Below, one piece after another: positions 14,063-45,600 of a stretch of 64,000 nt of DNA (position 1 is the stretch's first letter; each line of letters starts with the position of its first letter). The notes below the pieces were generated by a model. It searched no databases. It was given only the letters and a program-made list of their open reading frames with translations, and was not told the DNA's origin. Made by a program: the position numbers and the translations under genes. Where the stretch lies: NCBI GenBank assembly GCA_964487545.1, contig CAZARI010000004.1, positions 42,365-106,364 of the forward strand. Reading direction: 5' to 3'. Source of the DNA: an uncultured Cryomorphaceae bacterium. GTDB lineage: Bacteria; Bacteroidota; Bacteroidia; Flavobacteriales_D; SKUL01.

Positions 14063-14065
14063 TTG

Positions 14066-14137
14066 TAGCCCGTAGGGGATTCGAACCCCTGCTACCAGGA
14101 TGAAAACCTGGCGTCCTAACCCCTAGACGAACGGGCC
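14066..14137 (-). tRNA. tRNA-Glu (anticodon UUC)
   Basis: The reverse complement reads GGCCCGTTCGTCTAGGGGTTAGGACGCCAGGTTTTCATCCTGGTAGCAGGGGTTCGAATCCCCTACGGGCTA. The anticodon loop TTTTCAT carries TTC. Confidence 0.9.
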
Positions 14138-14210: not shown

Positions 14211-14906
14211 TTATTCATCAAAGTCATCCATGTCCGATTGAAATCTGTAACCCACTCGCTTACCGGTGCTAAAAAAAGTACTCTGGTTAATCAATTTCAT
14301 CTCGCGCACGGTGACTTGCTGCACCTCATGATACGGCGGGCTATACAAATCGAAATCCAGGGTGTATAAAATGGCCACCTCTATCACATCTTGAATGCGT
14401 TGAGCGGTGAGTTCATCGTTGATAAAGTCGTTGAACTGCAAACTCAATGGCCGCTTTCCCTGAATGAAAAAATGCCGTTCCTTATTAACAAACAGCCGGC
14501 CTATCAAATAGCCCACATCGTTGGTGCGGTTGTGACGAAACGAATCTGCCAGAAAATTGTAAATGTAAATCGATCCGCAGTAGCCACGATTTTCATCTTC
14601 CTTTAGATAAGAAGTGTTCCATGCAGAATGATCTCCTTCGAACTGACTCACGTTGGTATTCATCACAAACACCAATAAGTCGCCTGCAATGGTGGTTTGG
14701 CAGACATAATCTCCGAGCTCCTCATACTTGATCCGCACCCGATTGTCCACTGCACACAGGTTTTCATCCAGCACCTGACTGTAATTTTCCAGCCGTTCTT
14801 TAATCTGGGCAAAAATGTCTTTTGTCAACACAAATACATCCTGCTTCAAACAAGATTTAGTGCTTAGCGTTTCAAGAATTTTCTGATGTGTGCTTGATGG
14901 GTTCAT
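14211..14906 (-). CDS. Hypothetical cytoplasmic protein with acidic C-terminus
   Basis: ORF 14211..15011. I prefer Met36 (MNPSSTHQK) at 14906, which leaves an 11-nt gap after the proS stop. No signal peptide and no motif I recognise. Confidence 0.5.
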   Translation of the reverse strand: MNPSSTHQKILETLSTKSCLKQDVFVLTKDIFAQIKERLENYSQVLDENLCAVDNRVRIKYEELGDYVCQTTIAGDLLVFVMNTNVSQFEGDHSAWNTSYLKEDENRGYCGSIYIYNFLADSFRHNRTNDVGYLIGRLFVNKERHFFIQGKRPLSLQFNDFINDELTAQRIQDVIEVAILYTLDFDLYSPPYHEVQQVTVREMKLINQSTFFSTGKRVGYRFQSDMDDFDE

Positions 14907-14917
14907 ATCTTCGGTTT

Positions 14918-16393
14918 CTAATAAGCTCTGGCGAACAGCACCCGTCCTTCTGAGGGCTTTCCTGAATAGATGCACTGTCCTTTCTCCTCCATGCGTTTGA
15001 GTGGAATACACCGAATGGTTGCTTTGGTTTCCTGTTTAATTTTCTCTTCCGTTTCAGGGGTTCCGTCCCAATGCGCCCAGATAAATCCACCTGTGGTATC
15101 AAGGATTTTCCGGAATGTTTCGTAATCGTCTGCTTTGTGTGTGTTTTCCTGCTGATGCTTCAGTGCTCGAGAGTACAGGTTTTTCTGAATATCATCCAAC
15201 AGCCCAACGACTCGATCTTCAATAGAATCAAGCGATACCACTTCTTTTTCGCGGGTATCACGACGGGCAACCTCTACCGTTCCGTTCTCCAGATCTCGCG
15301 GTCCTATTGCAATCCTCACCGGAACACCTTTCAATTCGTATTCAGCAAATTTCCACCCTGGCTTTCGTTTGTCATCGTCATCGAGTTTTACTGACAGTCC
15401 GCGCTTTTTCAACTCGGTGAGCACCGGTTCAGCTGCGGCAACGATGGCTTTTAACTGCTCCTCATTTTTGTAGATGGGCACAATTACTACCTGTAAAGGC
15501 GCAAGTTTTGGTGGCAAAACCAATCCCTGATCGTCGGAGTGCGTCATGACTAGTGCTCCCATTAGCCGCGTGGAAACACCCCACGAGGTAGCCCACACAA
15601 AGGACGACTCTCCCTGCTGATCGACATACTTCACATCGAATGCTTTGGCGAAATTCTGACCCAAGAAATGGGATGTACCGGCTTGCAACGCCTTGCCATC
15701 CTGCATCATCGCTTCGATACACAAGGTATCCACCGCTCCCGCAAAACGCTCACTTTCGGTTTTTCTTCCTTTAATCACAGGCATGGCCATCCATTCTTCT
15801 GCAAAATTGGCATAAACCTCAAGCATTTTAGCCGTTTCTTCTCTTGCTTCTTGCTCAGTAGCGTGGGCCGTGTGACCTTCTTGCCATAAAAACTCAGCGG
15901 TTCGCAAAAACAATCGCGTTCTCATTTCCCAGCGCATAACATTGGCCCACTGGTTAATAAGTATCGGCAAGTCGCGGTATGACTGAATCCAATTGCGATA
16001 GGAGTTCCAGATAATCGTTTCGGAGGTGGGTCGAATAATGAGCTCTTCTTCGAGTTTAGAATCAGGATCTACCACCACTCCTTTACCATCTTCGCTGGTC
16101 TTTAGTCGGTAGTGCGTAACCACAGCACATTCCTTGGCGAAACCTTCAACGTGTGAAGCTTCCTTGCTCAAATAAGATTTTGGAATCAGTAGCGGAAAAT
16201 AGGCGTTTACGTGCCCGGTTTCTTTAAACTTGTCGTCAAGTGCACGTTGCATTTTTTCCCAAACCGCATAACCGTTTGGCTTGATAATCATGCAACCGCG
16301 AACCTCGGAATGCTCTGCCATGTCGGCTCTGATAACAATATCATTATACCATTTTGAATAGTCTTCCGATCGTGCTGTTATCTCCTTGCTCAT
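14918..16393 (-). CDS. proS: Proline--tRNA ligase (archaeal/eukaryote-like type lacking the INS editing domain)
   Basis: 491 aa with class II aaRS motifs ([23 protein letters not shown]), an anticodon-binding domain and a C-terminal ...ARAY end. Confidence 0.9.
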
Positions 16394-16529
16394 AGTCTTA
16401 AATTATGGTATAAATCTTGTATGTTGAATGGCAGTAACAATATAATTCACCGCTCATGGTTATCTCCTTATTTCGACGTAATTTTAGTGTGAAATTTGGA
16501 GTCCAAAGGTGAACAAAATCGACGAAGTT

Positions 16530-17726
16530 ATGAAGCAATTTGGAATTTACATAGCAGCCGCCCTTCTAATGACAGCCTGTGCAAATCAAGGAAATTTGGC
16601 AAGCTACGATGATGACGGAATCTATGCACGTCCGGGCAAGAAGCAAGCAACATCCGCCACACCGGCTGACGCCTATTACTTTGTTGATGAGGAGCCACAG
16701 GCCGATGGTCAATATTACGGTTCGGAAGACCATGCCTCGGCCGGCGAAGATGATTACGTGGCAGAAGCCAAGAGTCTACCTTCAGAAAGTGGCCGGGCGT
16801 ACAGCAGCCAGCGATACAATTCGCCAACTTATTATGCAGCCTATACATCGCACGTTCCTGTAACGATGCGGCTTGGCTATTCGAGTTTCCACGACCCCTT
16901 TGCCTATGGCGGCGGATTTGGTGTTAGCGTAGGATACGGATACGGTTTTTACGATCCATGGTGGGGTTATTATGATCCCTGGAATCCTTGGTATCGTCCG
17001 CATCCTTGGGGACGGTCATGGTACTCATGGAACACCTGGCATCCTTATGGTTATTATGGTTATGGAATGGGTTATGGCGCGGGTTATGCCCACGGATATT
17101 CAAACGGCTACTACCATGGTGTAAATTCCTATAACAACAACTACTGGGGAGAACACAACAGTTCACAGGCATATACCGGCCGTCGTCCGGCTTTTGGAGG
17201 TGGCAGTTTTGGCACCACTCCACCGGGAACTACAGGACCAAGGGGCAGAAGCACTTTTGAGTCACCCCAGAGAACACCGGCTCAGAGTGGCCGTGACATC
17301 AGAGGAATCGACCGCGATCGATCGCGGACTACCACCCCTGAAAGATCTCCCACCAGAGAAAACCCAGCGATAAACAACCGTCGCCCCGTCAATCCAAACG
17401 CTACCCGCCGTCCGGCTGACAGCCGTGACAATCGTCAGGATATACGTTGGGGCAATGGATCGAGAACACCAGACATGAACCGTGGTGGCAGCACCCAGCC
17501 CGGACGTCAGGGAGTAACTCCACCAGCCAGAGGGAACGACTCCTATACACGACCATCCGCACCTTCCAGAAATAATTATTCCCAGCCGGCGGCTCCTTCT
17601 AGAAATAACACGATGAGCAGACCGAGTACACCGTCGAGAAACGTAGCACCCAGTAGTCCATCACCAAGTCGTTCTTCGGGCAGTTCAGGCGGATCACGAG
17701 GTAACAGCACAGGAGGAAGACGATAA
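16530..17726 (+). CDS. Low-complexity lipoprotein (Tyr/Gly/Trp-rich core, Arg/Ser/Pro/Thr/Asn-rich tail)
   Basis: The ORF track begins at GTG 16509. I prefer ATG 16530 (MKQFGIYIAAALLMTAC, a lipobox). Extreme composition bias is visible directly in the translation. Confidence 0.6.
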   Translation: MKQFGIYIAAALLMTACANQGNLASYDDDGIYARPGKKQATSATPADAYYFVDEEPQADGQYYGSEDHASAGEDDYVAEAKSLPSESGRAYSSQRYNSPTYYAAYTSHVPVTMRLGYSSFHDPFAYGGGFGVSVGYGYGFYDPWWGYYDPWNPWYRPHPWGRSWYSWNTWHPYGYYGYGMGYGAGYAHGYSNGYYHGVNSYNNNYWGEHNSSQAYTGRRPAFGGGSFGTTPPGTTGPRGRSTFESPQRTPAQSGRDIRGIDRDRSRTTTPERSPTRENPAINNRRPVNPNATRRPADSRDNRQDIRWGNGSRTPDMNRGGSTQPGRQGVTPPARGNDSYTRPSAPSRNNYSQPAAPSRNNTMSRPSTPSRNVAPSSPSPSRSSGSSGGSRGNSTGGRR

Positions 17727-19264
17727 TGACTTTGAGATTCTTAGCCTTACTTTCCTCAGCCTTCGTACTGACGTTGTCATCTTACGGGCAAGGTTTGGAT
17801 GATGCACTGCGCTTTAGCCAAAGCTCATTACACGGTTCGGCTCGGTTTAATGCCATGGGTGGCGCTTTTACGGCCCTGGGGGGAGAACTGGGAGCAATTC
17901 ACCTTAACCCGGCTTCAGTGAGCGTGTTTACGAAAAATGAAATCGGGTTTACCCTTGGAATCGGGCACACCAGTATTAATACTGAATACTACAGTGATAC
18001 GAAAAACGCCCAGTACGGCAAACCCAACATTAATAATATGGGTATTGTTTTTTCGAGTGAACTGGAAAATCCCGACTGGACAAACCTCAATATTGGCATC
18101 ACTTTTTCCCGAACAAACGACTTTAACAGAAGGATTAAATACTCTGCCGAGCAAGACGAACACAGCTATGCGCAGTTTCTGGTAGATTGGGCAAATCACT
18201 CCAGACCTCCTAACTACAACAGCCCGGGCACCGTTGACGATCTGTACTACGACTTTCCCTTTGATGCGTATCCGGCCTACTCGTCGTATATTATCAACAA
18301 CTTTGTGAATGCCGATGGGGATGATGAGTATTACTCACCAATTGACTGGGGGGAAAAAGTAAAACAAGAATTCAGTCTTGAAGAGTCTGGACGAAGTTCT
18401 GAAATGATGCTTTCGATTGGGTCATCATATCGCGACAAACTTTATCTAGGATTCGGACTGAAGGTTGGAACTTTCGCATTGACCCGAAAGGTCGATCACA
18501 TGGAGACGCCCGAAATTCAAGATGAAATTTTGAGGCATTCATTCCAATCCGAACTAGAAACACGTGGAACATCCTACAGCCTTTCGGGTGGAATTATTGC
18601 CAGAATTTCGGATATGTTCAGGGTGGGGATTTCGGCGCAGACCCCCCATTTCTATGTGCACAATGAATATTTCAGAACCATTCACAACGCGCAACTCACC
18701 GGGGCGTATTTGAGTAATGCCGACACCACTGGCGGTGCCGGCGCCTCTGCCAGTCCCGAAGGCAACTTTAGGTACAACTTTCACACCCCTTGGGTATTTA
18801 ATACTGGCGTAGCAGCTGTTTTCGGCCCGCGGTCCATCCTTAGTGTTGATTATGAATTTCGGAACTACAGTTCGGGAAAATTTAAACGAAACTCCAGAAG
18901 CAGCAGTAGTGAAAATTTCGAATTTCAAAACGAGGACATCAAGAACGTATTGGGTATCACGCATAACTTTCGTGCGGGATTTGAGTACCGTTTACTTCCG
19001 TTAAGCCTGCGCGCTGGTTATAATTATTCTATGGATCCGGTTAAGCGCTCATATCGCGGTAGCTTTGATCGCGGCTCCCATCAGATTTCGCTCGGTGCGG
19101 GGATGCGATTTGAGAGAATTTTTCTCGATGTATCGTACTACTATCACATGACCGAATCGCCCTACGCCTTCTACGACACTGGCTATCTGGTGGGACAAAG
19201 CAAATTTGCCGCGATGGATATCGTCCGACACGGAATTGCATTCAGCATTGGGATACGGTATTAG
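17726..19264 (+). CDS. FadL/TodX-like outer-membrane beta-barrel protein
   Basis: 512 aa with a signal peptide. The N-terminal GSARFNAMGGAFTALGGELGAIHLNPAS resembles the FadL/Toluene_X hatch motif. The C-terminus ends in aromatic ...SIGIRY. The start overlaps the upstream stop (TAATG). Confidence 0.5.
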   Translation: MTLRFLALLSSAFVLTLSSYGQGLDDALRFSQSSLHGSARFNAMGGAFTALGGELGAIHLNPASVSVFTKNEIGFTLGIGHTSINTEYYSDTKNAQYGKPNINNMGIVFSSELENPDWTNLNIGITFSRTNDFNRRIKYSAEQDEHSYAQFLVDWANHSRPPNYNSPGTVDDLYYDFPFDAYPAYSSYIINNFVNADGDDEYYSPIDWGEKVKQEFSLEESGRSSEMMLSIGSSYRDKLYLGFGLKVGTFALTRKVDHMETPEIQDEILRHSFQSELETRGTSYSLSGGIIARISDMFRVGISAQTPHFYVHNEYFRTIHNAQLTGAYLSNADTTGGAGASASPEGNFRYNFHTPWVFNTGVAAVFGPRSILSVDYEFRNYSSGKFKRNSRSSSSENFEFQNEDIKNVLGITHNFRAGFEYRLLPLSLRAGYNYSMDPVKRSYRGSFDRGSHQISLGAGMRFERIFLDVSYYYHMTESPYAFYDTGYLVGQSKFAAMDIVRHGIAFSIGIRY

Positions 19265-19284: not shown

Positions 19285-19316
19285 AAAAAAGGGGCTGCGA
19301 GCCCCTTTTTTTTTTG
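19285..19316. terminator. Bidirectional rho-independent terminator
   Basis: aaaaaaggggctgcgagcccctttttttttt has a GC stem flanked by A- and T-runs. It sits between convergent genes. Confidence 0.8.
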
Positions 19317-19339: not shown

Positions 19340-20095
19340 TTATTCCTCAATGGGATCAATTTCGTCATCGACCAAAATTCGGCCGCAATGCTCACAAACC
19401 AGAATTTTTTTGTGGGTACGGATATCGAGTTGACGCTGGGGTGGAATCTTGTTGAAGCATCCGCCACAAGCATCCCGATCGATGGTTACAACCGCCAAAC
19501 CATTCTTTGCATTTTCCCGGATACGGTGATACGCGTTTAGCAAACGGTCTTCGATTATCTTTTCTGCTTCGGTTGCCCGTTTTTCCAGATCCTGCTCTTC
19601 TTTCTCAGTCTCAGCCGTGATGGCTTCGAGCTCCGCCTTTTTCAGCTCCAGGTCTTTTTCGCGACCATCCAGAACTTCAGTAGACTCAGTGAGCACCTCC
19701 TTTTTGTTCTCGATGGCAAACTGCGTTTCTTTTATTCGTTTCTCGGCGAGCTGAATTTCGAGTGACTGGTATTCGATTTCTTTGGAAAGCGAATCAAACT
19801 CGCGATTGTTGCGAACCTTTTCCTGCTGTGTGGTGTATTTCTTGATGAGCTCCTGACTCTCCTGAATTGCATTTTTACGCTCCGAAACACTGAATTCCAG
19901 CTCTTTAATCTCTTGCTCCAGTTTTTCCTTTCGGGTTCGAAGACCTTCAATCTCGTCTTCCAAGTCTTCTACTTCCAATGGAAGCTCACCTCGGACGGTG
20001 CGTATTTTATCGAGCGAGGAATGTATTTTTTGCAACGTGTAAAGAGCGCTCAGTTTCTGCTCTACAACATTCTCTGTTTTGGTTGCCTTAGCCAT
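19340..20095 (-). CDS. Coiled-coil C4 zinc-ribbon protein (COG1579/DUF164-like)
   Basis: 251 aa with a long heptad-rich region and C-terminal CGGC...CEHC. It follows a NIF3 gene after a 3-nt gap, a pairing I recognise as common. Confidence 0.7.
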   Translation of the reverse strand: MAKATKTENVVEQKLSALYTLQKIHSSLDKIRTVRGELPLEVEDLEDEIEGLRTRKEKLEQEIKELEFSVSERKNAIQESQELIKKYTTQQEKVRNNREFDSLSKEIEYQSLEIQLAEKRIKETQFAIENKKEVLTESTEVLDGREKDLELKKAELEAITAETEKEEQDLEKRATEAEKIIEDRLLNAYHRIRENAKNGLAVVTIDRDACGGCFNKIPPQRQLDIRTHKKILVCEHCGRILVDDEIDPIEE

Positions 20096-20098
20096 CGA

Positions 20099-21193
20099 TC
20101 AAAAATAATTAATTGGGTTTGTATTCACCTCTGTAAAATGGACGGCAAAGGTAGGAAAATTTTCCTGCAAATATTCCACGAGAAGATCTATGGTAAACTG
20201 CTCACTTTCATAATGCCCGATATCAGCAATTATAATCTGATCCTCGGCGTCAAAAAACTCATGGTATTTAAAATCACCGGTGATAAACACATCAGCTCCT
20301 GACTGTTTGGCAGCCGGAAGAAGAAAGCTTCCCGAGCCACCGCAAACCGCCACTTTTCGCAGCGGTTCATTAAATAATCGAGTGTGTCGTATTAATTGCG
20401 TGTTCATACTCTTTTTCAGCATGGCCAAAAAATCCTCGACATCCATCGGTTTGGGAAGTAAGCCCACCATTCCCGCCCCCACACGCTGATCGGCGTTTTC
20501 GAGTTGATATATGTCATAGGCCACCTCTTCATAGGGGTGTGCCTGGCGCATGGCTTTTACCACCTGACTTTGTTGGTGCGATCGGAAAACAACTTCAATC
20601 CTTGTTTCTTTTTCGGTGTGCCGTTCTCCTTTTCTGCCCACAAAAGGTTTGGTGTAGTCTCCTCCTTTAAATGTTCCTTCTCCAACTAGATTGAAAGCGC
20701 ATTCACTATAATTACCGATTGCTCCGGCACCGGCTGAAAAAACAGCCTGCCGAACCAATTCTGCGTGATCCATTGGGCAAAACACCACCAACTTGCGCAA
20801 ATGCCCCGATTTGGGCACAAGAATTTCCCTATTGGTTAGTTTCAAGCGATCTGCAATGCGGTTATTGACTCCCGCCTGAATATTGTCGAGATTGGTATGA
20901 ATGGCATATAGTGCAATATCATTTCGTATGGCAGAAAGCACCGTACGCTCCACATAGTTGGCACCAGTAAGCCGTTTAAGTCCTCCAAAAATAATGGGGT
21001 GATGAGAAACGATCAGGTTGCAGTTTCGACGCACTGCTTCTTCCACCACGGCTTCGGTGCAATCTAGCGACACCAGAATGCCACACACTTCTGAATCTGC
21101 GTCGCCAACCAATAATCCTGCGTTGTCGTAACTCTCCTGATAATTTTTCGGAGCCAAATTCTCAAGGTATCTAGCAACATCTTTAATCTTCAT
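20099..21193 (-). CDS. Nif3-like dinuclear metal centre protein
   Basis: I prefer the start MKIKDVARYLE at 21193. Motifs include SYDNAGLLVGD, LIVSHHPIIF and the C-terminal ADIGHYESE. Confidence 0.8.
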   Translation of the reverse strand: MKIKDVARYLENLAPKNYQESYDNAGLLVGDADSEVCGILVSLDCTEAVVEEAVRRNCNLIVSHHPIIFGGLKRLTGANYVERTVLSAIRNDIALYAIHTNLDNIQAGVNNRIADRLKLTNREILVPKSGHLRKLVVFCPMDHAELVRQAVFSAGAGAIGNYSECAFNLVGEGTFKGGDYTKPFVGRKGERHTEKETRIEVVFRSHQQSQVVKAMRQAHPYEEVAYDIYQLENADQRVGAGMVGLLPKPMDVEDFLAMLKKSMNTQLIRHTRLFNEPLRKVAVCGGSGSFLLPAAKQSGADVFITGDFKYHEFFDAEDQIIIADIGHYESEQFTIDLLVEYLQENFPTFAVHFTEVNTNPINYF

Positions 21194-21222
21194 GGCTTGT
21201 GTTATGTTCTTATTTTTAGCCC

Positions 21223-22266
21223 ATGAAATTACTGAGAATTGTTCTTCTTCCATTTTCAGCACTTTACGGGATAATTTTGAGGGTAAGGCATTTTCTCTTT
21301 GATACTGGATTGCTTACTTCTCACCACTTCACTCATCCTAAATCCATTTGTGTGGGGAACTTGAACACGGGCGGAACGGGCAAAACACCTTTTACAATAT
21401 ATTTAGCGAAACTACTCGGCGACAATGAAAACATTGCTGTGCTTTCACGTGGATATAAAAGAAAAACCAGTGGGTTTATGTTGGTCAACTCCAACAGCAC
21501 GGCCGACGATGTCGGCGACGAACCACTACTTATTTATCGGCACCTCGACCAAGCTAAAGTTGCTGTCGATGCCAATAGAAAAAGGGGAATCGAAAAATTA
21601 AGCGCGCTACCTGCTATCCACACCGTAATTCTGGACGACGCGTTTCAACACAGACGCGTGAAAGCAGGCCTGAATATTCTGCTCACCGACTACCACAACC
21701 GCTATACCAGACAATATTTGTTGCCAGCCGGAACATTGCGCGATATCCGGTATCGCGCAAAGGATGCCAACCTGATTGTGGTCACTAAATGTCCAACAGA
21801 TGTAAATGAAGACCAAATTCTGAAGGAGATTAATCCAGGGTCTCATCAAAAAGTGTTTTTTACCCGCTTCCGATACCGCAATCTCAAACCAATAAACGGC
21901 GATCAGATTTTCGAAACAGATTTTATAGAAGGCAAAGGTGTCTTGTTGGTAACCGGTATCGCACGCCCGCGATATGTTGAGGAATATCTGAAAACGAAAG
22001 CGAGAATATTAAAAACCGTTAAGTTCAGCGATCATCACGATTATAGCACGCGAGACGTTCGAAGGATAACCGAAATATTTGATAATTTTGAAGCGTCTCC
22101 CAAACTGGTTGTAACTACAGAAAAAGACAGTGTAAAACTGAATCATCCATCACTTGCGCCACTGCTTTTGAAACTACCAATTTTTGTGTTGACAATTGAA
22201 ATAGAATTTCTGAAGAATCAAGAAACCTTTGAAAGAGAAGTAAAAAGATATGTTGAAAAAAATTGA
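21223..22266 (+). CDS. lpxK: Tetraacyldisaccharide 4'-kinase
   Basis: 347 aa with P-loop VGNLNTGGTGKTP, SRGYKRK and the DDAFQHR motif. Confidence 0.85.
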   Translation: MKLLRIVLLPFSALYGIILRVRHFLFDTGLLTSHHFTHPKSICVGNLNTGGTGKTPFTIYLAKLLGDNENIAVLSRGYKRKTSGFMLVNSNSTADDVGDEPLLIYRHLDQAKVAVDANRKRGIEKLSALPAIHTVILDDAFQHRRVKAGLNILLTDYHNRYTRQYLLPAGTLRDIRYRAKDANLIVVTKCPTDVNEDQILKEINPGSHQKVFFTRFRYRNLKPINGDQIFETDFIEGKGVLLVTGIARPRYVEEYLKTKARILKTVKFSDHHDYSTRDVRRITEIFDNFEASPKLVVTTEKDSVKLNHPSLAPLLLKLPIFVLTIEIEFLKNQETFEREVKRYVEKN

Positions 22267-39688: not shown

Positions 39689-42600
39689 ATGTTCAATAAA
39701 TATTTCGGATTGGTTGTGTTATTGCTGACCTTTTCACTGGCTTCTGTCAAGGCTCAGCTTGTAGTCAACACTGGCGGCTCCCCCGCTCAGCTCGCAGAAA
39801 TGCTTTCAGGTCAGGGTGTTCAGATTCTGAACCCCCAAATTACTTGCCCTACTGGTGGTTGGGGAACATACGATGCCAATGTTCCATCATTTACTTCCGA
39901 AGAGGGAATCATTCTGGCCACTGGCCTTGTCACCAACGCCATAGGGCCCAACAACGTTGAGGACAGATCGACCAACTTTAATGCTCCGGGAAACTCAATG
40001 CTAACCGCCGTTTCGGGTTTTTCCACCCGAGATGCGTGCATGTTCAAATTCGACATTATCCCACAAGGTGATTCGCTAAAATTCGATTTTGTTTTTGCAT
40101 CCGAAGAATATCAGGAATATGTAGGAACAGCCTATAATGATGTCTTTGGGTTTTTCATTTCAGGTCCGGGTATTGTCGGCGATCCAGGACTGGGGTCATT
40201 TAAGAATATCGCGTTAATTCCTGGCACAAACACAGGGGTAACGATTAATAATATCAACCACGGTAACTTCAATATATGGCCTCCCTACGGCGCCCAAAAT
40301 CCACAGTACTTTCACCCCAACCCGCTCAGTCCAAACGCCATGATACAGTATGACGGATGGACGGTGAATCTGCAAGCCCTTGCACAGGTAGTACCCTGCC
40401 AGACGTACGAATTGCGGCTAATCATTGCCGATGCAACCGACAATGTTTGGGACTCAGGCGTTTTTATCGAAAAAATTGAAAGTAACAACGTTCAGCTCTC
40501 ATCCACTACCATTGGCGGAACTGATCGCATGATTGAAGGTTGCAACGATGGTATTGTCACCTTTACACGTCAAAATGTAACCAACGAACCTTTGGTTGTT
40601 GAGTACTACTTGCAAGGGACTGCCATCAACGGATTGGACTATGTTCAGATCGGCAACCCCAATCCGAACGTTGCGAAAACCATTACCATTCCGGCCAACC
40701 AAGCTACTGCTTCGCTATTGATTGAACCGATTGCAGATGGAATTCCCGAAGGACTGGAATTTGTTCAAATTCTGATCGGTAACCCGCAATGTGCAAATGC
40801 CATCAGCGATAGCTTAAGCTTTTTCATACAAGATTCCCTGGCTGTGTATGTGGATCCTCCCCTTGCCAATATCTGCGAGGGAGATGGTGTCACTTTCACC
40901 GTTACGGAAGGCGGAACCGCTTTTAGCTGGTCACCGCCCACTTTCCTCAATGATCCGAATATCAAAGAGCCCACGGCCCAAAACGTAACAGCCAATACCA
41001 CTTATACCCTGACCACAACATTGTCTGAATGTGTCGCTACAGCAACGTCAACGATCACTACTGAGAATGTGTTGATACAGTTATCCCCCGAGCACCTGTC
41101 GTGCAACGGATCCAACGACGGAAGCATCTCGGCTACGATCAGTGGCGGCCAGCCCAATTACAGTTATAGCTGGACAGGACCAAACGGATATACGTCTTCG
41201 CAACAGAACATAACCAACCTGACTCCAGGAACTTATACACTGGTCGTTAACGATCAGAATAACTGCCAGAGTTCAGAAAGCATCACCATAACGCAGCCCG
41301 CACCATTGGCTATTTCGTTAGAAAGCCCTGAGTATACCGGTGGTTTTAACATTTCCTGCTTTGGTGGATCGGATGGGAGCGTTATCGCTTCCGTTTTGGG
41401 AGGTACTTCGCCTTACACCTTCAGCTGGAACGATCCAGACAATCAAACCAGTGTTAACCCCAGTGGACTTATAGTAGGGACATATCAGGTTACCGTAACG
41501 GATGCCAATGGTTGCGTTACCACAGCAAGCATTACATTGAGTGAACCATCTGCTGTTACTGCATTCATCATTGCCCGGCAAGATGTGCTTTGTCATGGAG
41601 AAAACACGGGTTCGGCAACGGTTCAAGCCGGAGGCGGAGTAGGAAACTACACTTACAGTTGGAATACTACTCCTCCTCAATTCGGATCCACGGCTTCAAA
41701 CCTGACGGCTGGTGTCTATTCTGTCACTGTAACTGACGGGAATAACTGCTCGACTACTATTTCGGTGAACATTGACGAACCGGAAGCTCCAATAACAATC
41801 AGCACTTCACAGCAGAATGTTTTGTGCTTTGGCGGTACAACAGGAATGGTCTCTGCTGCTGCCACCGGTGGTTTCGGAACGTTGACATACACTTGGAACA
41901 CAACACCTGTTCAAACCGGACAAATGGCTGTCAACCTAGGTGCAGGAACGTATATGGTGACTGTGATAGATGAAAACGGCTGTACAGAAAATGCGTTGGT
42001 GACCATCACCCAGCCGGCTTCAGCCCTTGGTGTATCGCTGATAAACAGCACTGACGTATTATGCCATGGAGAGGCAAACGGCGGCGCCACCGTGCAGGCC
42101 TCCGGCGGAACTCCACCGTATAACTACTCTTGGAATACCACTCCGCCGCAGACCAGTGCAACAGCATCCAATCTGTCGGCAGGCAATTACGAAGTAACCG
42201 TAACCGACAACAACGGGTGTACTCAAAACCTGATTGTTGTTATTGACGAGCCCGCAGAAACGCTATCGCTGCAACTGAATTCCCAGCAAAATGTAAATTG
42301 CTTCGGAGCGTCGACCGGATCGGCAACCGTTTCCGCATCTGGTGGCACTGGCAATTACACTTATACCTGGAACACCTCTCCAGTCACAACAGGATCAACA
42401 ATGAGCGGCGTTCCTGCTGGCAGCTATACGGTTACCGTAACGGACGAAAACAACTGTACTGACCAGCTCACTGTTGAAATTACACAACCGGCAGCTCCAT
42501 TGCAGGCCGATATCACCAACATTCAGCACGTGCTGTGCCACGGCGATGCTTCCGGATCTGCGACCGTAACCCCTTCGGGCGGAACACCCGGCTACACCTA

Positions 42601-45600
42601 CCTATGGAACGATCCAGCCACACAAACCACCGCTACGGCCACCGGTCTTACCACTGGATCCTATAATGTAACCGTTACCGATGCGAACGGCTGTACCGGC
42701 ACCATTAACGTTACCATCAACCAACCTTCATCACCACTCAACGCAAGTATTATCAGCCAGACGGATGTACTTTGCTACGGAAACGCAACCGGATCGGCAA
42801 CCATTCAAGCCATTGGAGGCTCAGGATCATACGCCTACTTGTGGACACCGGGTGGCTACACCACTTCAACCGCATCGAATTTAGCCGCCGGTACTTATAC
42901 CGTTCAGGTATTTGATAACAACGGTTGTGCGACACCTTTTGAAATCACCGTGGAGATTAATCAACCTTCCGAGGGACTGGAGGCAGACCTGACCAGCCCC
43001 ATCATAGTTGGTGGCTGGAACATTGCTTGTAACGGAGATGCATCTGGGTCGATTAATTTGGATGTTAGCGGTGGAACTGCGCCATACGAATACATGTGGT
43101 TCGAAGCCAATGGCGATACCACTTACGCGCAAAACCTGAGCAACGTAATTGCCGGAACGTACACCGTCATCATTTTCGATCAAAGCGAATGTACTTTGGA
43201 AGCCTCGATTTTACTGACTCAACCCGATCCGATTGATGTCACTTTTGAAATGACACCTTCGCTATGCTTCGGAAGCAACGAAGGAGAAATAAAACTCGAA
43301 GCATTTGGCGGAACACCTGGATATAATTTCTTCTGGGAAGGACCGGGTGGATTCACCTCCACCTCACCAGATCTGTTTGAACTGTTCGGTGGAATCTACG
43401 AACTAACCGTAACCGATACCAATGGTTGTGTTTTCACCTCGCCGGTCACGGTTACTCAACCAGAGGATATTGAAATTCTCACCGAATCGCTGAGTATCTA
43501 TCCCGGAGGGTGGAATGTATCATGTCACGATTCGGAAGACGGAAATATAGATATTTCTGCTTCGGGCGGTAGCACACCCTACAACTTTATCTGGCATGGT
43601 CCGAACAACCCTTTCTTCTCTAATGATGAAGACGTTAACGGTGTTTCTGGTGGGACGTATGAGGTGGTGCTGATCGACGATAACAACTGTATTCAAAATC
43701 ACTTTGTGACCCTTGAAGCACCCGATTCGATACTAATTAACCTCGATGCATTTCAGTTTCCTGGTGGAGCCGAATTGAGCTGTGCCGGTGCTAGCGACGG
43801 AAGTATAACATCGGTGGTAAGCGGCGGAACGCCGGACTACTCATACAACTGGAGCGGGCCGGTAGGTTTTCCCGGTGCTATTTCAGAAAACCTAGACTAC
43901 CTGCCTGAGGGAACTTATGTATTAGAGATTACGGATATCAACGGATGTATTTCTGAGCAAGCCGTGCGCATAGACCCACCACTGCCATTGCAGGTCAGCG
44001 CCTTTAGCGCGGGATATTTTGGAAGCTATAATATTTCATGTAACGGCGGATCCGACGGTAGCATTGAGCTTACCATCAATGGTGGCGTGCCGGGGTATAC
44101 CGTCAACTGGCAAGGTCCAAATGGCTACTCTTCAACAGAAGTCAACCCAACAGGTCTTTCTGCCGGATTCTACTGCGCAACCGTTACCGACATCAATGGC
44201 TGTGACGAAGTTATTTGCATTACCCTTACCGAGCCCAACGAGCTTGTTGGCACCCCAACGGCATTCGAGTTTGACGGAGGTTGGAACATCGACTGCTATG
44301 GAAACGCCAGCGGAAACATTACTACAACCGTTTCGGGAGGTACCGCACCGTACACCTATTCATGGGACGGCCCTGGATTCTTTACTTCCAATCAAGCCGA
44401 CCTATCACTGATCGGTGCAGGGTTGTATTGCCTTACCATTACCGATGCAAACGGTTGCACCTTTGAAACCTGTATCGACCTGACCCAACCCGATCCGATG
44501 AACATCAGTTTTGCAGTGAGCGACTATAACGGTGAGCCGCTAACTTGTACTGGCGCCGACGACGCTAGCTTAACGGCTGAGGTATCAGGCGGTACTGTAG
44601 GATACAATTACCAATGGAGCGGTCCAAATGGATTCACCGCATCAACGGCAACCATCAGCAACCTTATTGCAGGAGTGTACTGCGTAACCGTAACCGACGT
44701 CAACAATTGCTCAGAAACCAATTGCTTTGAGATCAGCGAGCCGCAACCTATTCAGATAACGCTTTCCTCCCCAACCTATGCTGGCGGATGGCATATCGAC
44801 TGTAACGGGGCCTCTACTGGTTCAATCGCAGCAACAGTCATCGGAGGCGTTGGAGGATACAGCTATCAGTGGAGCGGCCCGAATGGCTTTACTTCCGGAT
44901 CGCTAAACCTCAATAACCTCCAAGCCGGTGTATACTGCTTGGAAGTAACCGATGTAAATAGCTGCGTTGAAATGAATTGCATTTCACTGACGCAACCTGA
45001 CGCACTTGCTGCCAGTCCATCCGTACTACCCGTTGCCTGCAACTCGGAGGCCACAGGTAGCATCGACCTCAACCTTTCGGGAGGAACATTGCCTTATACC
45101 ATTAGCTGGAACAACGGCGCCAGCACCGAAGTAATCAGCAATCTCGAAGCCGGAATCTATACTGCAACGATAATCGACGCCAACAACTGCGTGATTCAGG
45201 AGATAGTGGAAATTGAACAACCCGAAAACCTACAACTCACTTTGAGTAGCCCTACTTTTATCGGAGGCTACAATATTGACTGTAATGGCGCTTCAACCGG
45301 ATACATCGGAAACAATGTAGTGGGTGGAACAGCACCTTACATCTACTCGTGGAGTGGACCAAACGGTTTCAGCTCGACAGACAGCAGTCTGACAAACGTG
45401 CCGGCTGGAACATACTGCCTCAACATCATCGACAACAACGGTTGCGAGGCGTCCGCCTGCATCACCCTAACCGAACCTGACGAACTCACGATAAACATCA
45501 ATGAGATAGCAGAAATCCTTTGTACCAACGGAACCGATGGAGCATTGCAAGCTGTAGTAAATGGCGGCAACGCTAGCTACGCGTATAGCTGGACTGGCCC

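What the first reader, a model, noticed from the sequence alone, without database searches (positions are those of the whole stretch)
16530..19264. Translationally coupled pair: extreme low-complexity lipoprotein plus FadL-like outer-membrane barrel
The first gene encodes a lipoprotein (MKQFGIYIAAALLMTAC) with three unusual zones. The first is an acidic stretch rich in Tyr, Asp and Glu. The second is a ~95-aa core (nt ~16872-17159) with about 20 Tyr, 9 Trp and more than 20 Gly by my count, for example GYGYGFYDPWWGYYDPWNPWYRPHPWGRSWYSWNTWHPYGYYGYGMGYG. The third is a ~180-aa strongly basic tail rich in Arg, Ser, Thr, Pro and Asn. That tail includes three imperfect tandem units (APSRNN / APSRNN / TPSRN) at nt ~17560-17650. 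The stop codon of this gene overlaps the ATG of a 512-aa barrel (TAATG at 17724-17728). The N-terminus of the barrel (GSARFNAMGGAFTALGG...HLNPAS) looks like the FadL/TodX or PorV hatch motif. I know no described function for such a pair. By inference, the barrel could export or anchor the disordered lipoprotein. The aromatic/Gly core and polycationic tail resemble matrix-forming, amyloid-like or polyanion-binding proteins.
Basis: partly seen in the sequence, partly recalled or inferred. Interest (0 to 1): 0.55.

Follow-up and report, generated by a model that had tools for sequence, protein, structure and literature searches.

The report
FadL-like barrel with disordered partner
A two-gene operon found beside proS throughout the Bacteroidota encodes a FadL-type outer-membrane barrel and a wholly disordered (lipo)protein rich in Tyr, Trp, Gly and Arg that no database describes; it is probably a new barrel-plus-docked-partner envelope complex, and its role is unknown.

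Summary
ORF A (16530-17726) is a lipoprotein with an acidic head, a 96-aa core holding 20 Tyr, 9 Trp and 20 Gly, and an Arg-rich tail. Its stop overlaps the ATG of ORF B (17726-19264). ORF B models confidently (pLDDT 90) as a 14-stranded FadL-fold barrel with an NPA hatch.

The pair is not a local oddity. All 80 best barrel-homologue loci, from Flavobacteriales, Bacteroidales, Cytophagales and Sphingobacteriales, carry the same partner immediately upstream. In 74 of them proS lies divergently beside it. The partner keeps the same layout everywhere:
- an N-terminal DD(G)[IVLM]Y[YF] motif about 10 residues after the lipid Cys;
- an acidic block, an aromatic/Gly block and an Arg-rich tail;
- a C-terminal ...GGRR end.

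It is predicted to be fully disordered and matches no Pfam or NCBIfam family.

The barrel is not BamG, PorV or PorQ, and it has no catabolic neighbours. Its probable P. gingivalis homologue, PG1626, is an abundant but uncharacterised OMV protein.

The best reading, by analogy only, is that the barrel docks the partner's conserved N-terminus, as BamG docks BamH and PorV/PorQ dock PorU/PorZ. The sticky, polyanion-binding disordered chain would then be tethered in the envelope, probably on the periplasmic side. Function is untested. I class it as a new variant of a known kind.

The parts
14918..16393 (-). proS (prolyl-tRNA synthetase), the conserved divergent neighbour of the pair
   Evidence: One search gives the ORF and the Pfam tRNA-synt_2b / HGTP_anticodon / ProRS-C_1 hits on the identical contig. 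tblastn finds proS divergently upstream of the pair in 74 of 80 loci.
16394..16529 (.). 136-bp divergent intergenic region that presumably holds the promoters of proS and of the pair
   Evidence: Sequence. No Rfam element was found. The sigma-70 scan is not informative for Bacteroidota promoters.
16530..17726 (+). Partner gene: a 398-aa secreted lipoprotein predicted to be fully disordered
   Evidence: AF2 gives pLDDT 40.7 and no secondary structure beyond the signal peptide. Homologues were found. No Pfam or NCBIfam family matches.
16530..16580 (+). Signal peptide and lipobox (LLMTAC, Cys17)
   Evidence: Read directly from the sequence. A lipobox is present in 69 of 73 partner homologues.
16605..16625 (+). 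Conserved N-terminal motif YDDDGIY (family consensus [DE]D(G)[IVLM]Y[YF]), 8 residues after the lipid Cys
   Evidence: The motif is found in 73 of 74 partners, 7-14 residues (mode 10) after the Cys. Where there is no lipobox it lies at or within a few residues of the mature N-terminus.
16581..16868 (+). Acidic Tyr/Asp/Glu-rich block (aa 18-113, pI 4.3)
   Evidence: The N-terminal block is net negative in 72 of 73 homologues, with a median charge of -10.
16869..17174 (+). Aromatic/Gly core (aa 114-215: 21 Tyr, 9 Trp, 4 Phe, 20 Gly)
   Evidence: Across the family the densest 80-aa window has a median of 38% aromatic residues and 24% Gly. Trp, Gly and Pro positions are invariant among close relatives.
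17175..17723 (+). Basic Arg/Ser/Thr/Pro/Asn-rich tail (aa 216-398, pI 12.0) ending ...STGGRR
   Evidence: The tail is net positive in 72 of 73 homologues (median +19), with 13% Arg against 1% Lys. The ...GGRR / GRGRVR C-terminus is conserved.
17724..17728 (+). TAATG stop/start overlap between the partner gene and the barrel gene
   Evidence: In relatives the gap is -1 to 184 nt.
17726..19264 (+). Barrel gene: a 512-aa, 14-stranded FadL-fold outer-membrane protein
   Evidence: AF2 gives pLDDT 89.9 and pTM 0.85. The top Foldseek hits are BamG, FadL, TodX and TbuX. The family profile hits TbuX at 2.8e-9 and P. aeruginosa FadL at 1.6e-7.
17789..17938 (+). Mature N-terminal tail and hatch (aa 22-71: QGLDDALRFS...GSARFNAMGGAF...NPA), the most conserved part of the barrel
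   Evidence: Conservation is 2.6-3.1 bits per column here, against 1.0-1.7 in the extracellular loops. Q22, D26, G37, A39, R40, G45, G46, G52, N61, P62 and A63 are invariant or nearly so.
18110..18127 (+). RTNDFN motif at the break in strand 3 (aa 129-134), the position of the FadL S3 kink and lateral opening
   Evidence: DSSP shows a break between E118-132 and E135-143 in the model. R129 is invariant in A2 and F133 is nearly invariant. The model coordinates could not be inspected.
19285..19311 (.). Bidirectional intrinsic terminator that closes the operon
   Evidence: A 12-bp stem AAAAAAGGGGCT/AGCCCCTTTTTT flanked by T runs on both strands. It lies between the barrel and the convergent zinc-ribbon gene.

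Best explanation
**Shown**
- ORF A and ORF B form one operon. It encodes a secreted, mostly lipidated, fully disordered protein and a FadL-fold outer-membrane barrel.
- The two genes are inseparable across the Bacteroidota.

**Inferred**
- The barrel is not working as a stand-alone fatty-acid or aromatic importer. It acts as an outer-membrane dock.
- The partner's one universally conserved short motif, DD(G)[IVLM]Y[YF], binds the conserved part of the barrel. That part is the N-terminal tail, the hatch and the strand-3 gate region.
- This motif sits about 10 Ser/Thr-rich residues from the lipid anchor. Where the anchor has been lost, it lies at or within a few residues of the mature N-terminus.
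- The arrangement would parallel BamH, whose conserved lipidated N-terminus is wedged against the conserved N-terminus of the FadL-like BamG.
- The rest of the partner hangs from this dock as a flexible block polyampholyte: an acidic head, a Tyr/Trp/Gly 'sticker' core and an Arg-rich Ser/Thr/Pro tail ending in GGRR. Such a chain can self-associate and bind polyanions.
- The partner has no lipoprotein export signal and no T9SS C-terminal domain. The chain therefore most likely lies on the periplasmic side, where it could contact peptidoglycan or anionic membrane surfaces. That would serve envelope architecture or outer-membrane homeostasis.

**Unresolved**
- The side of the membrane and the ligand are not settled.
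For: **The operon**
- Stop/start overlap, no internal terminator, and a strong terminator after ORF B.

**The barrel fold**
- AF2 pLDDT 89.9. Foldseek top hits are BamG of three species, interleaved with FadL, TodX and TbuX (TM 0.5-0.67).
- The NPA motif is invariant.

**Linkage**
- The partner lies immediately upstream in 80 of 80 barrel-homologue loci from four orders.
- The pair is also found in P. gingivalis, adjacent in several strains.

**Partner motif and architecture**
- N-terminal motif in 73 of 74 partners, with the spacing from Cys peaking at 10 residues. It is retained at or within a few residues of the mature N-terminus in the 5 non-lipidated copies.
- Acidic head in 72 of 73, basic tail in 72 of 73, Arg far more common than Lys, and a GGRR end.
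- Predicted disorder: pLDDT 40.7.

**Where the barrel is conserved**
- Conservation is concentrated in the N-tail and hatch and is lowest in the extracellular loops. The same pattern is reported for BamG.

**Precedents for FadL-like barrels docking a partner in this phylum**
- BamG-BamH, and the BamG2-BamH2 operon.
- PorV-PorU and PorQ-PorZ.

**Other points**
- No LES: 0 of 69 lipidated partners have 2 or more acidic residues in the six positions after the Cys. The criterion is the one quoted.
- No catabolic genes nearby.
- The probable P. gingivalis homologue PG1626 is an abundant OMV protein, and PG_1625 is detected by proteomics.
Against: - No interaction was tested.
- The model coordinates could not be inspected, so the proposed docking site rests on conservation logic and analogy only.
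- The barrel keeps the NPA hatch and a conserved strand-3 kink region, which would also fit a working FadL-type channel.
- BamH, PorU and PorZ are folded, surface-exposed proteins, unlike this disordered partner that lacks an LES.
- The acidic DDD patch could be a displaced export signal, which would put the chain on the surface.
- Tight gene linkage shows a shared function, not physical binding.
- The mapping of PG1626 and PG1625 to these proteins rests on length, annotation and adjacency, not on a sequence check.
Confidence: 0.4

Rival explanations
1. Threading or secretion. The barrel is a conduit, in the manner of CsgG or FapF, or of RcsF threading through OmpA. The unfolded partner would pass through it or through its lateral gate. 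The aromatic core and Arg-rich tail would then be displayed on the cell surface as an adhesive, matrix-forming or LPS-binding coat, held by the N-terminal lipid and motif.
For: - The partner is predicted to be wholly disordered and is therefore translocation-competent.
- The known partners of FadL-like barrels in this phylum are all surface proteins.
- The probable homologue PG1626 is abundant in OMVs.
- A Tyr/Gly/Asn/Arg/Trp composition with segregated charges resembles adhesive and coacervating proteins. This is my own knowledge and a lead, not a test.
- An acidic patch lies about 10 residues from the lipid Cys.
Against: - The hatch that plugs FadL-type lumens is the best conserved part of the barrel.
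- 0 of 69 partners have a canonical LES, and none has a T9SS CTD.
- The extracellular loops are the least conserved part, so no conserved surface site is evident.
- Housekeeping-like universality and synteny are unusual for adhesins.
Confidence: 0.2
2. Ordinary transport. The barrel is a working FadL-type channel for a hydrophobic molecule such as a fatty acid, a lipid or an envelope lipid intermediate. The partner would be an accessory, for example a periplasmic acceptor or chaperone whose aromatic-rich region binds the cargo.
For: - The NPA motif is invariant, and the hatch and strand-3 kink region are conserved.
- The family profile hits TbuX and FadL.
- Many homologues carry PF03349 and are named 'aromatic hydrocarbon degradation protein'.
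Against: - There are no fatty-acid or aromatic catabolism genes in this window or in the 80 loci.
- The window protein itself does not reach any Pfam FadL score.
- PorV, which is not a transporter, also keeps NPA (alignment).
- 100% linkage to a disordered partner has no parallel among known FadL transporters.
Confidence: 0.15
3. The pair is an unrecognised accessory of a known Bacteroidota machine. The barrel would be a PorV/PorQ-like T9SS component or a BamG-like BAM subunit.
For: - A weak PorV/PorQ family hit (1.9e-8, 34 bits).
- The closest solved folds are BamG of three species.
- PG1626 co-purified as a minor band with PorK/PorN rings.
Against: - The PorV score is far below the cut-off of 90 bits.
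- The family profile does not hit any BamG chain at E up to 10.
- The P. gingivalis homologue has no PDB sequence match, although P. gingivalis BamG is in the PDB. It is therefore a separate paralogue.
- It was not among the subunits named for the BAM complexes characterised from F. johnsoniae, B. thetaiotaomicron and P. gingivalis.
Confidence: 0.1
4. ORF A is a spurious low-complexity reading frame, and only the barrel is a gene.
For: Extreme composition. AF2 finds no fold.
Against: - There is a signal peptide and a lipobox.
- The layout is colinear and conserved in 80 of 80 loci down to 25% barrel identity.
- Trp, Gly and Pro positions are invariant.
- 79 full-length HMM hits, with no off-target hit among the 10 sequences inspected.
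- A probable proteomic detection in P. gingivalis.
Confidence: 0.01

Closest known systems
BamG-BamH (and the BamG2-BamH2 operon) of the Bacteroidota BAM complex
   Same: - A 14-stranded FadL-fold barrel with a conserved N-terminal tail and variable loops.
- It is paired with a lipoprotein whose conserved, lipidated N-terminus binds the barrel.
- BamG2 and BamH2 are encoded together.
- BamG chains are the top Foldseek hits.
   Different: - No sequence relationship is detectable: 11-14% identity, and the profile misses BamG.
- This barrel is about 100 residues longer.
- BamH is a folded surface lipoprotein with an LES. This partner is disordered and has none.
- No link to BamA is shown.
PorV-PorU and PorQ-PorZ (T9SS attachment complex)
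   Same: FadL-like outer-membrane barrels of Bacteroidota that anchor a partner protein at the membrane. There is weak profile similarity to the PorV/PorQ family.
   Different: - The score is far below the family cut-off.
- PorU and PorZ are folded T9SS cargo with C-terminal domains.
- No T9SS genes lie nearby.
FadL / TodX / TbuX hydrophobic-compound channels (Pfam PF03349)
   Same: The fold, the N-terminal hatch, the invariant NPA motif and a break in strand 3. The profile hits TbuX at 2.8e-9 and P. aeruginosa FadL at 1.6e-7.
   Different: - No catabolic gene context.
- The window protein does not reach a Pfam score.
- It is obligately paired with a disordered protein.
PG1626 / PGN_0477 of Porphyromonas gingivalis ('putative hemin receptor', 'FadL outer membrane receptor', 'transporter')
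   Same: - Probably the orthologue of the barrel: a 554-aa family member from P. gingivalis with E 1.4e-29.
- It was listed in 2007 as a Bacteroidetes signature protein.
- It is abundant in OMVs.
   Different: - It has never been characterised.
- Its upstream partner has not been described, and in P. gingivalis the partner is not lipidated.
- Its identity with PG1626 is inferred from length and annotation, not from a sequence check.
RcsF-OmpA/C/F, and the curli (CsgA/CsgG) and Fap (FapC/FapF) systems
   Same: A disordered or unfolded chain is associated with, or threaded through, an outer-membrane barrel encoded nearby. This rests on my own knowledge.
   Different: The barrel families are different, there are no amyloid-type imperfect repeats, and nothing was tested here.

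Membership tests
FadL/OmpP1/TodX family (Pfam PF03349 Toluene_X) | 14-stranded beta-barrel plugged by an N-terminal hatch | tested here: met
   AF2 gives pLDDT 89.9, with 14 long strands after a 50-residue N-terminal segment. Foldseek probability is 1.00 to FadL, TodX and TbuX.
FadL/OmpP1/TodX family (Pfam PF03349 Toluene_X) | Conserved NPA motif in the hatch | tested here: met
   N61-P62-A63 are invariant in 32 sequences.
FadL/OmpP1/TodX family (Pfam PF03349 Toluene_X) | Kink in strand 3 that makes a lateral opening | tested here: inconclusive
   DSSP shows a break at residues 133-134 inside strand 3, at the conserved RTNDFN motif.
FadL/OmpP1/TodX family (Pfam PF03349 Toluene_X) | Score above the curated Pfam threshold | tested here: not met
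   The window protein has no PF03349 hit at E up to 1. Many homologues carry a precomputed PF03349 hit, and the family profile hits TbuX at 2.8e-9. It is therefore a divergent member of the superfamily.
FadL/OmpP1/TodX family (Pfam PF03349 Toluene_X) | Transport of a hydrophobic substrate, or a catabolic gene context | tested here: not met
   The neighbours are proS, tRNA-Glu, SppA, HPPK, dNK, NIF3, lpxK, PNP and gatB. No catabolic genes recur in the 80 loci. Transport itself cannot be tested here.
BamG (Bacteroidota BAM subunit) | Sequence orthology to BamG | tested here: not met
   The profile of 32 family members hits no BamG chain at E up to 10. Identity in the structural alignment is 11-14%. 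The P. gingivalis family member has no PDB sequence match, although P. gingivalis BamG (9hjm_F) is in the PDB.
BamG (Bacteroidota BAM subunit) | Tight complex with BamA, and essentiality | not testable with these tools
   It was not listed among the subunits of the BAM complexes characterised.
BamG (Bacteroidota BAM subunit) | Partner is a folded surface lipoprotein (BamH) with an LES | tested here: not met
   The partner is predicted to be disordered. 0 of 69 lipidated partners have 2 or more acidic residues within six residues of the Cys.
PorV/PorQ family (NCBIfam NF033709) | Score of at least 90 bits against the curated model | tested here: not met
   34.3 bits for the window protein and 36.6 bits for a Hymenobacter homologue. 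The P. gingivalis homologue has no hit.
PorV/PorQ family (NCBIfam NF033709) | Binds T9SS cargo, PorU or PorZ; T9SS context | not testable with these tools
   No T9SS genes are adjacent. PG1626 co-purified with PorK/N but was not cross-linked to them.
Bacteroidota surface lipoproteins (LES-dependent) | Two or more acidic residues within about six residues after the lipid Cys | tested here: not met
   0 of 69. The spacer is rich in Ser, Thr, Ala, Gly and Gln.
YXWGXW / WXXGXW repeat proteins (Pfam) | Match to the repeat model | tested here: not met
   None of 9 partner proteins hits this or any other repeat model at E up to 1. This includes the WGWN-repeat copy from Flavobacterium filum. The only hit was a chance-level DsbC_N match (E 0.14) for the P. 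gingivalis copy.
Functional amyloid systems (curli, Fap) | Imperfect amyloid repeats in the substrate, plus a CsgG- or FapF-type secretion channel | tested here: not met
   There is no repeat architecture beyond short PSRN units. The barrel has a FadL fold. Amyloid propensity itself was not tested.

The most novel reading that the evidence does not exclude
The pair is a phylum-wide envelope organiser of a kind not yet described. A FadL-type barrel would nucleate or anchor a block-polyampholyte disordered protein with an acidic head, a Tyr/Trp/Gly sticker core and an Arg-rich tail. Arg-aromatic and charge-block interactions would make this protein form a gel-like or condensate-like layer, either in the periplasm or on the cell surface. 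That layer would link the outer membrane to peptidoglycan or LPS in a phylum that lacks Braun's lipoprotein.
Probability: 0.12. Interest if true: 0.85.

Novelty: new variant of a known kind. Interest (0 to 1): 0.62.

Why it matters
Work published in 2025 showed that Bacteroidota reuse FadL-fold barrels as docks for partner proteins in BAM, as they also do in T9SS. This operon looks like a further such module, and it is at least as widely conserved. It was present in every barrel-homologue locus sampled, from four orders.

Its barrel is probably one of the abundant outer-membrane and OMV proteins of P. gingivalis. Its partner belongs to no curated family and is among the most extreme conserved disordered proteins one is likely to meet in a bacterial envelope.

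If the docking model holds, it gives a directly testable handle on two questions. One is how disordered, Arg- and aromatic-rich chains are used in the Bacteroidota envelope, for example for tethering, spacing or adhesion. The other is what the remaining FadL paralogues of gut and oral Bacteroidota do.

If the barrel turns out to be a plain transporter, the obligatory disordered partner would still be new.

Tried and rejected
1. **Complex prediction.** No interface model exists.
3. **Third homologue search.** A diverse 14-sequence barrel alignment returned essentially the same set (only one weak extra hit, P0107) and no model-organism names.
4. **First genome scan.** The 32-sequence alignment was too divergent to give a search pattern. 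It succeeded with 12 sequences.
5. **Barrel N-terminal 57 residues against the PDB.** Only chance hits. BamG, FadL and PorV were not found.
6. **Supplements of both BAM papers.** Searches for FadL, OmpP1, PG1626, proS and 'aromatic hydrocarbon degradation' returned nothing. A search for a Flavobacterium johnsoniae orthologue by annotation also returned nothing. The B. thetaiotaomicron and F. johnsoniae locus tags therefore remain unidentified.
7. **dN/dS on the partner.** Considered and dropped. The available relatives are too divergent, so synonymous sites would be saturated.
8. **Covariation between motif variants and the barrel N-tail.** Partner motif variants (DDGIY against DD[IVL]YY) track lineage. 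This was rejected as evidence because it is confounded by phylogeny.
9. **A regulatory RNA in the proS-partner spacer.** No Rfam hit.
10. **'Pro-rich protein next to proS'.** Rejected as an explanation of the linkage. The partners have a median of only 7% Pro.

Full report
**1. The observation**

The window holds two same-strand ORFs, exactly as described.

ORF A runs 16530-17726 (398 aa). It starts MKQFGIYIAAALLMTAC, with the lipobox Cys at codon 17. ORF B runs 17726-19264 (512 aa). It starts with the ATG that shares its A with the TAA stop of ORF A...CGA TAA TGA C....

The 96-aa stretch encoded by nt 16872-17159 holds 20 Tyr, 9 Trp, 20 Gly and 4 Phe. The segment before it (aa 18-113) has pI 4.3. 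The 183-aa tail has pI 12.0, with 32 Arg/Lys, 25 Pro and 46 Ser/Thr. Only 5.8% of the mature protein is Ile, Leu, Val or Met.

The best 80-aa window of ORF A has 48 Tyr/Trp/Phe/Gly residues. The other 34 ORFs of at least 200 aa in this window have a median of 19 and a maximum of 29.

The APSRNN / APSRNN / TPSRN units exist at the protein level, but they are not a DNA tandem repeat.

No terminator-like site lies between the genes. A 12-bp-stem bidirectional terminator follows ORF B at 19285-19311. The pair is therefore one transcription unit, fed from the 136-bp spacer it shares with the divergent proS gene.

**2. The barrel**

Pfam gives only a sub-threshold UPF0164 hit. NCBIfam gives a PorV/PorQ-family hit of 34 bits against a cut-off of 90.

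A search of the large protein collection found 86 homologues of 450-600 aa. Many carry a precomputed PF03349 (Toluene_X/FadL) hit, and the few that are named are called 'aromatic hydrocarbon degradation protein'.

A profile of 32 family members hits the solved TbuX (2.8e-9), P. aeruginosa FadL (1.6e-7), PorV (0.0075) and TodX. It hits no BamG chain.

AlphaFold2 with that alignment gives pLDDT 89.9 and pTM 0.85. The model has a roughly 50-residue N-terminal segment followed by 14 long strands. Strand 3 has a break at residues 133-134, which coincides with the conserved RTNDFN motif.

The best Foldseek matches in the PDB are interleaved:
- BamG of B. thetaiotaomicron (9hiv_F), F. johnsoniae (9n2d_B) and P. 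gingivalis (9hjm_F);
- FadL, TodX and TbuX.

All have TM 0.5-0.67 and 9-14% identity.

Across the family, the mature N-terminal tail (2.6 bits per column) and the hatch (3.1 bits) are the most conserved regions. Q22 and N61-P62-A63 are invariant. The extracellular loops are the least conserved, at 1.0-1.7 bits.

The barrel is thus a divergent, separate clade of the FadL superfamily.

**3. The partner**

Neither the window protein nor eight diverse homologues hit any Pfam or NCBIfam family. Word-indexed search found only 12 close relatives.

An exhaustive HMM search of 1.84 billion representatives found 79 hits at E up to 1e-3. All are 149-641 aa and nearly all match colinearly along most of their length. 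Ten were inspected, and all share the same layout.

AlphaFold2 predicts no structure beyond the signal peptide (pLDDT 40.7, pTM 0.15). The alignment for that run was shallow, at 10 sequences.

**4. Synteny**

A scan of one genome per species found 176 barrel relatives. The best 80 loci come from:
- Flavobacteriales (Cryomorphaceae, Vicingaceae, Crocinitomicaceae, Flavobacterium, Polaribacter);
- Bacteroidales (Rikenellaceae, Muribaculaceae, Porphyromonadaceae);
- Hymenobacter and other Cytophagales;
- Sphingobacteriaceae.

A script, followed by a manual check of the exceptions, shows a partner-type ORF directly upstream on the same strand in all 80. Two are cut by contig ends and one is disrupted by a frameshift or a run of N.

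proS lies divergently upstream in 74 of the 80 loci.

The distance from the partner's stop to the barrel's start ranges from -1 to 184 nt, with a median of 45. Adjacency is conserved; translational coupling is not.

Every named copy of the partner is 'hypothetical protein'.

**5. Conserved anatomy of the partner**

Over 73 pairs:
- **Signal peptide.** 69 have a lipobox. Four, plus the P. gingivalis copy, have an ordinary signal peptide instead, for example ...PVAAQ|DYEDDIYY and ...PAYS|QNDDVFEDDIY.
- **N-terminal motif.** [DE]D(G)[IVLM]Y[YF] is present in 73 of 74. It lies 7-14 residues (mode 10) after the Cys. The spacer is rich in Ser, Thr, Ala, Gly and Gln.
- **No export signal.** None of the 69 lipidated partners has the two acidic residues within six positions of the Cys that mark Bacteroidota surface lipoproteins. 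The criterion is the one quoted.
- **Acidic block.** Net negative in 72 of 73, with a median charge of -10.
- **Second motif.** Y[AST]xR[LI]RRF appears in at least 29.
- **Aromatic/Gly core.** Median 38% aromatic and 24% Gly over 80 aa.
- **Tail.** Net positive in 72 of 73 (median +19), with 13% Arg against 1% Lys.
- **C-terminus.** It almost always ends in a Ser/Gly run followed by RR, RRR or GRGRVR.

So both ends of a fast-evolving disordered chain are fixed.

**6. What is known**

*BAM.* Two 2025 papers show that the Bacteroidota BAM complex contains BamG. BamG is a FadL-family barrel whose conserved, extended N-terminus passes through the lateral opening. It binds the conserved lipidated N-terminus of the surface lipoprotein BamH. 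A BamG2-BamH2 pair is encoded as an operon.

*T9SS.* In the T9SS attachment complex, PorU and PorZ are held at the surface by the outer-membrane proteins PorV and PorQ. PorV is described as a FadL homologue.

*P. gingivalis.* This species has a family member of 554 aa, annotated 'transporter / OmpP1/FadL family'. A partner-type gene lies directly upstream of it, and the two are adjacent in several strains.
- By length and annotation, the barrel is very probably PG1626 / PGN_0477. That protein was listed in 2007 as a Bacteroidetes signature protein of 554 aa and is annotated as a FadL receptor.
- PG1626 is among the most abundant OMV proteins.
- It is a minor co-purifier with PorK/PorN rings but is not cross-linked to them.
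- The neighbouring PG_1625 is an 'uncharacterized protein' seen in proteomics.
- These mappings were not checked by sequence.
- The P. gingivalis family member has no sequence match in the PDB, although P. gingivalis BamG is there. The family is therefore a paralogue of BamG, not its orthologue.

I found no paper describing the pair or the partner.

**7. Mechanism**

*Shown.* The pair is a co-transcribed, phylum-wide, obligately linked module. It comprises a FadL-fold barrel and a secreted disordered protein. Conservation is concentrated at the barrel's N-tail and hatch, and at the partner's two termini.

*Inferred.* The partner's N-terminal motif docks on the conserved N-tail, hatch or gate region of the barrel, as in BamG-BamH. 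The barrel would then anchor a flexible chain made of an acidic block, an aromatic block and an Arg-rich block.

That chain can self-associate and bind polyanions. With no LES and no T9SS C-terminal domain, the default location is periplasmic. I put this reading at about 0.4.

*Rivals.*
- Threading or secretion to the surface as an adhesive or matrix (0.2).
- A genuine FadL-type channel with an accessory partner (0.15).
- An unrecognised T9SS or BAM accessory (0.1).
- A spurious ORF (0.01, refuted by conservation).

**8. Verdict**

The 'anchor or export' inference is reasonable and now has close precedents. The amyloid idea has no support.

The barrel fold and the barrel-plus-partner logic are known. 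This clade, its obligatory disordered partner and its function are not. I class it as a new variant of a known kind and score interest at about 0.6.

Noticed in passing
window 14211-15011 (-): A 266-aa ORF just downstream of proS has no Pfam family. tblastn finds it at the same position in 34 of 80 loci, at 36-71% identity. It looks like a conserved gene of unknown function that travels with proS in Flavobacteriales and many Bacteroidales.
   Followed up: partly
L086 5697-6896; L082 and L084 4610-5845; L051; L061: In P. gingivalis, a Muribaculaceae MAG, a Porphyromonadaceae-labelled MAG and two further MAGs (a Flavobacteriales and a Bacteroidota bacterium), the partner has lost the lipobox Cys. 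It has a plain signal peptide, and the DDIYY motif lies at or within a few residues of the mature N-terminus, usually after a Gln. Lipidation is therefore dispensable but the motif is not.
   Followed up: partly
window 17789-17791 (barrel Gln22): The first mature residue of the barrel is an invariant Gln in all 32 aligned homologues. From my own knowledge, this fits the Bacteroidetes 'Q-rule' of pyroglutamate N-termini after signal peptidase I cleavage. It was not tested here.
   Followed up: no
window 16509-16529: An in-frame GTG 21 nt upstream would add MNKIDEV to the partner. Gene calls in relatives (P0092, P0094, P0095) include the same NKI(D/H)EV stretch. This upstream stretch is therefore conserved, either as a 5' leader or RBS region or as an alternative start. 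The ATG at 16530 gives the more typical lipoprotein signal peptide.
   Followed up: no
window 19285-19311: A perfect 12-bp-stem hairpin flanked by A and T runs serves as a bidirectional terminator. It lies between the barrel gene and the convergent zinc-ribbon/coiled-coil gene at 19340-20095. Weak Rfam sRNA hits at this position are simply this hairpin.
   Followed up: yes
L040 (CALRRY020000017.1): A contig labelled 'MAG: Variovorax paradoxus' carries a proS-partner-barrel locus almost identical in type to the Flavobacterium filum locus (WGWN-repeat partner). The contig is probably mis-binned or the MAG mislabelled.
   Followed up: no
window 21223-21262: The divergent NIF3-family gene (20099-21262, -) and lpxK (21223-22266, +) overlap by 40 nt at their 5' ends as called by the ORF list. 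One of the two starts is probably further in. The NIF3-lpxK-PNP arrangement recurs downstream of the pair in about 10 of the 80 loci.
   Followed up: no
window 39689-47989 (+): A 2766-aa ORF, the largest in the window, was seen while computing composition statistics. It was not examined.
   Followed up: no
window 14065-14137 (-): tRNA-Glu (anticodon TTC) lies between SppA and the 266-aa unknown ORF.
   Followed up: yes
L013, L020, L022, L025, L026, L031, L037, L044 and other Rikenellaceae/Bacteroidales loci: In these lineages proS ends about 1.3-1.5 kb from the partner's start, rather than about 100-200 bp. An extra gene therefore sits between proS and the pair. It was not identified.
   Followed up: no
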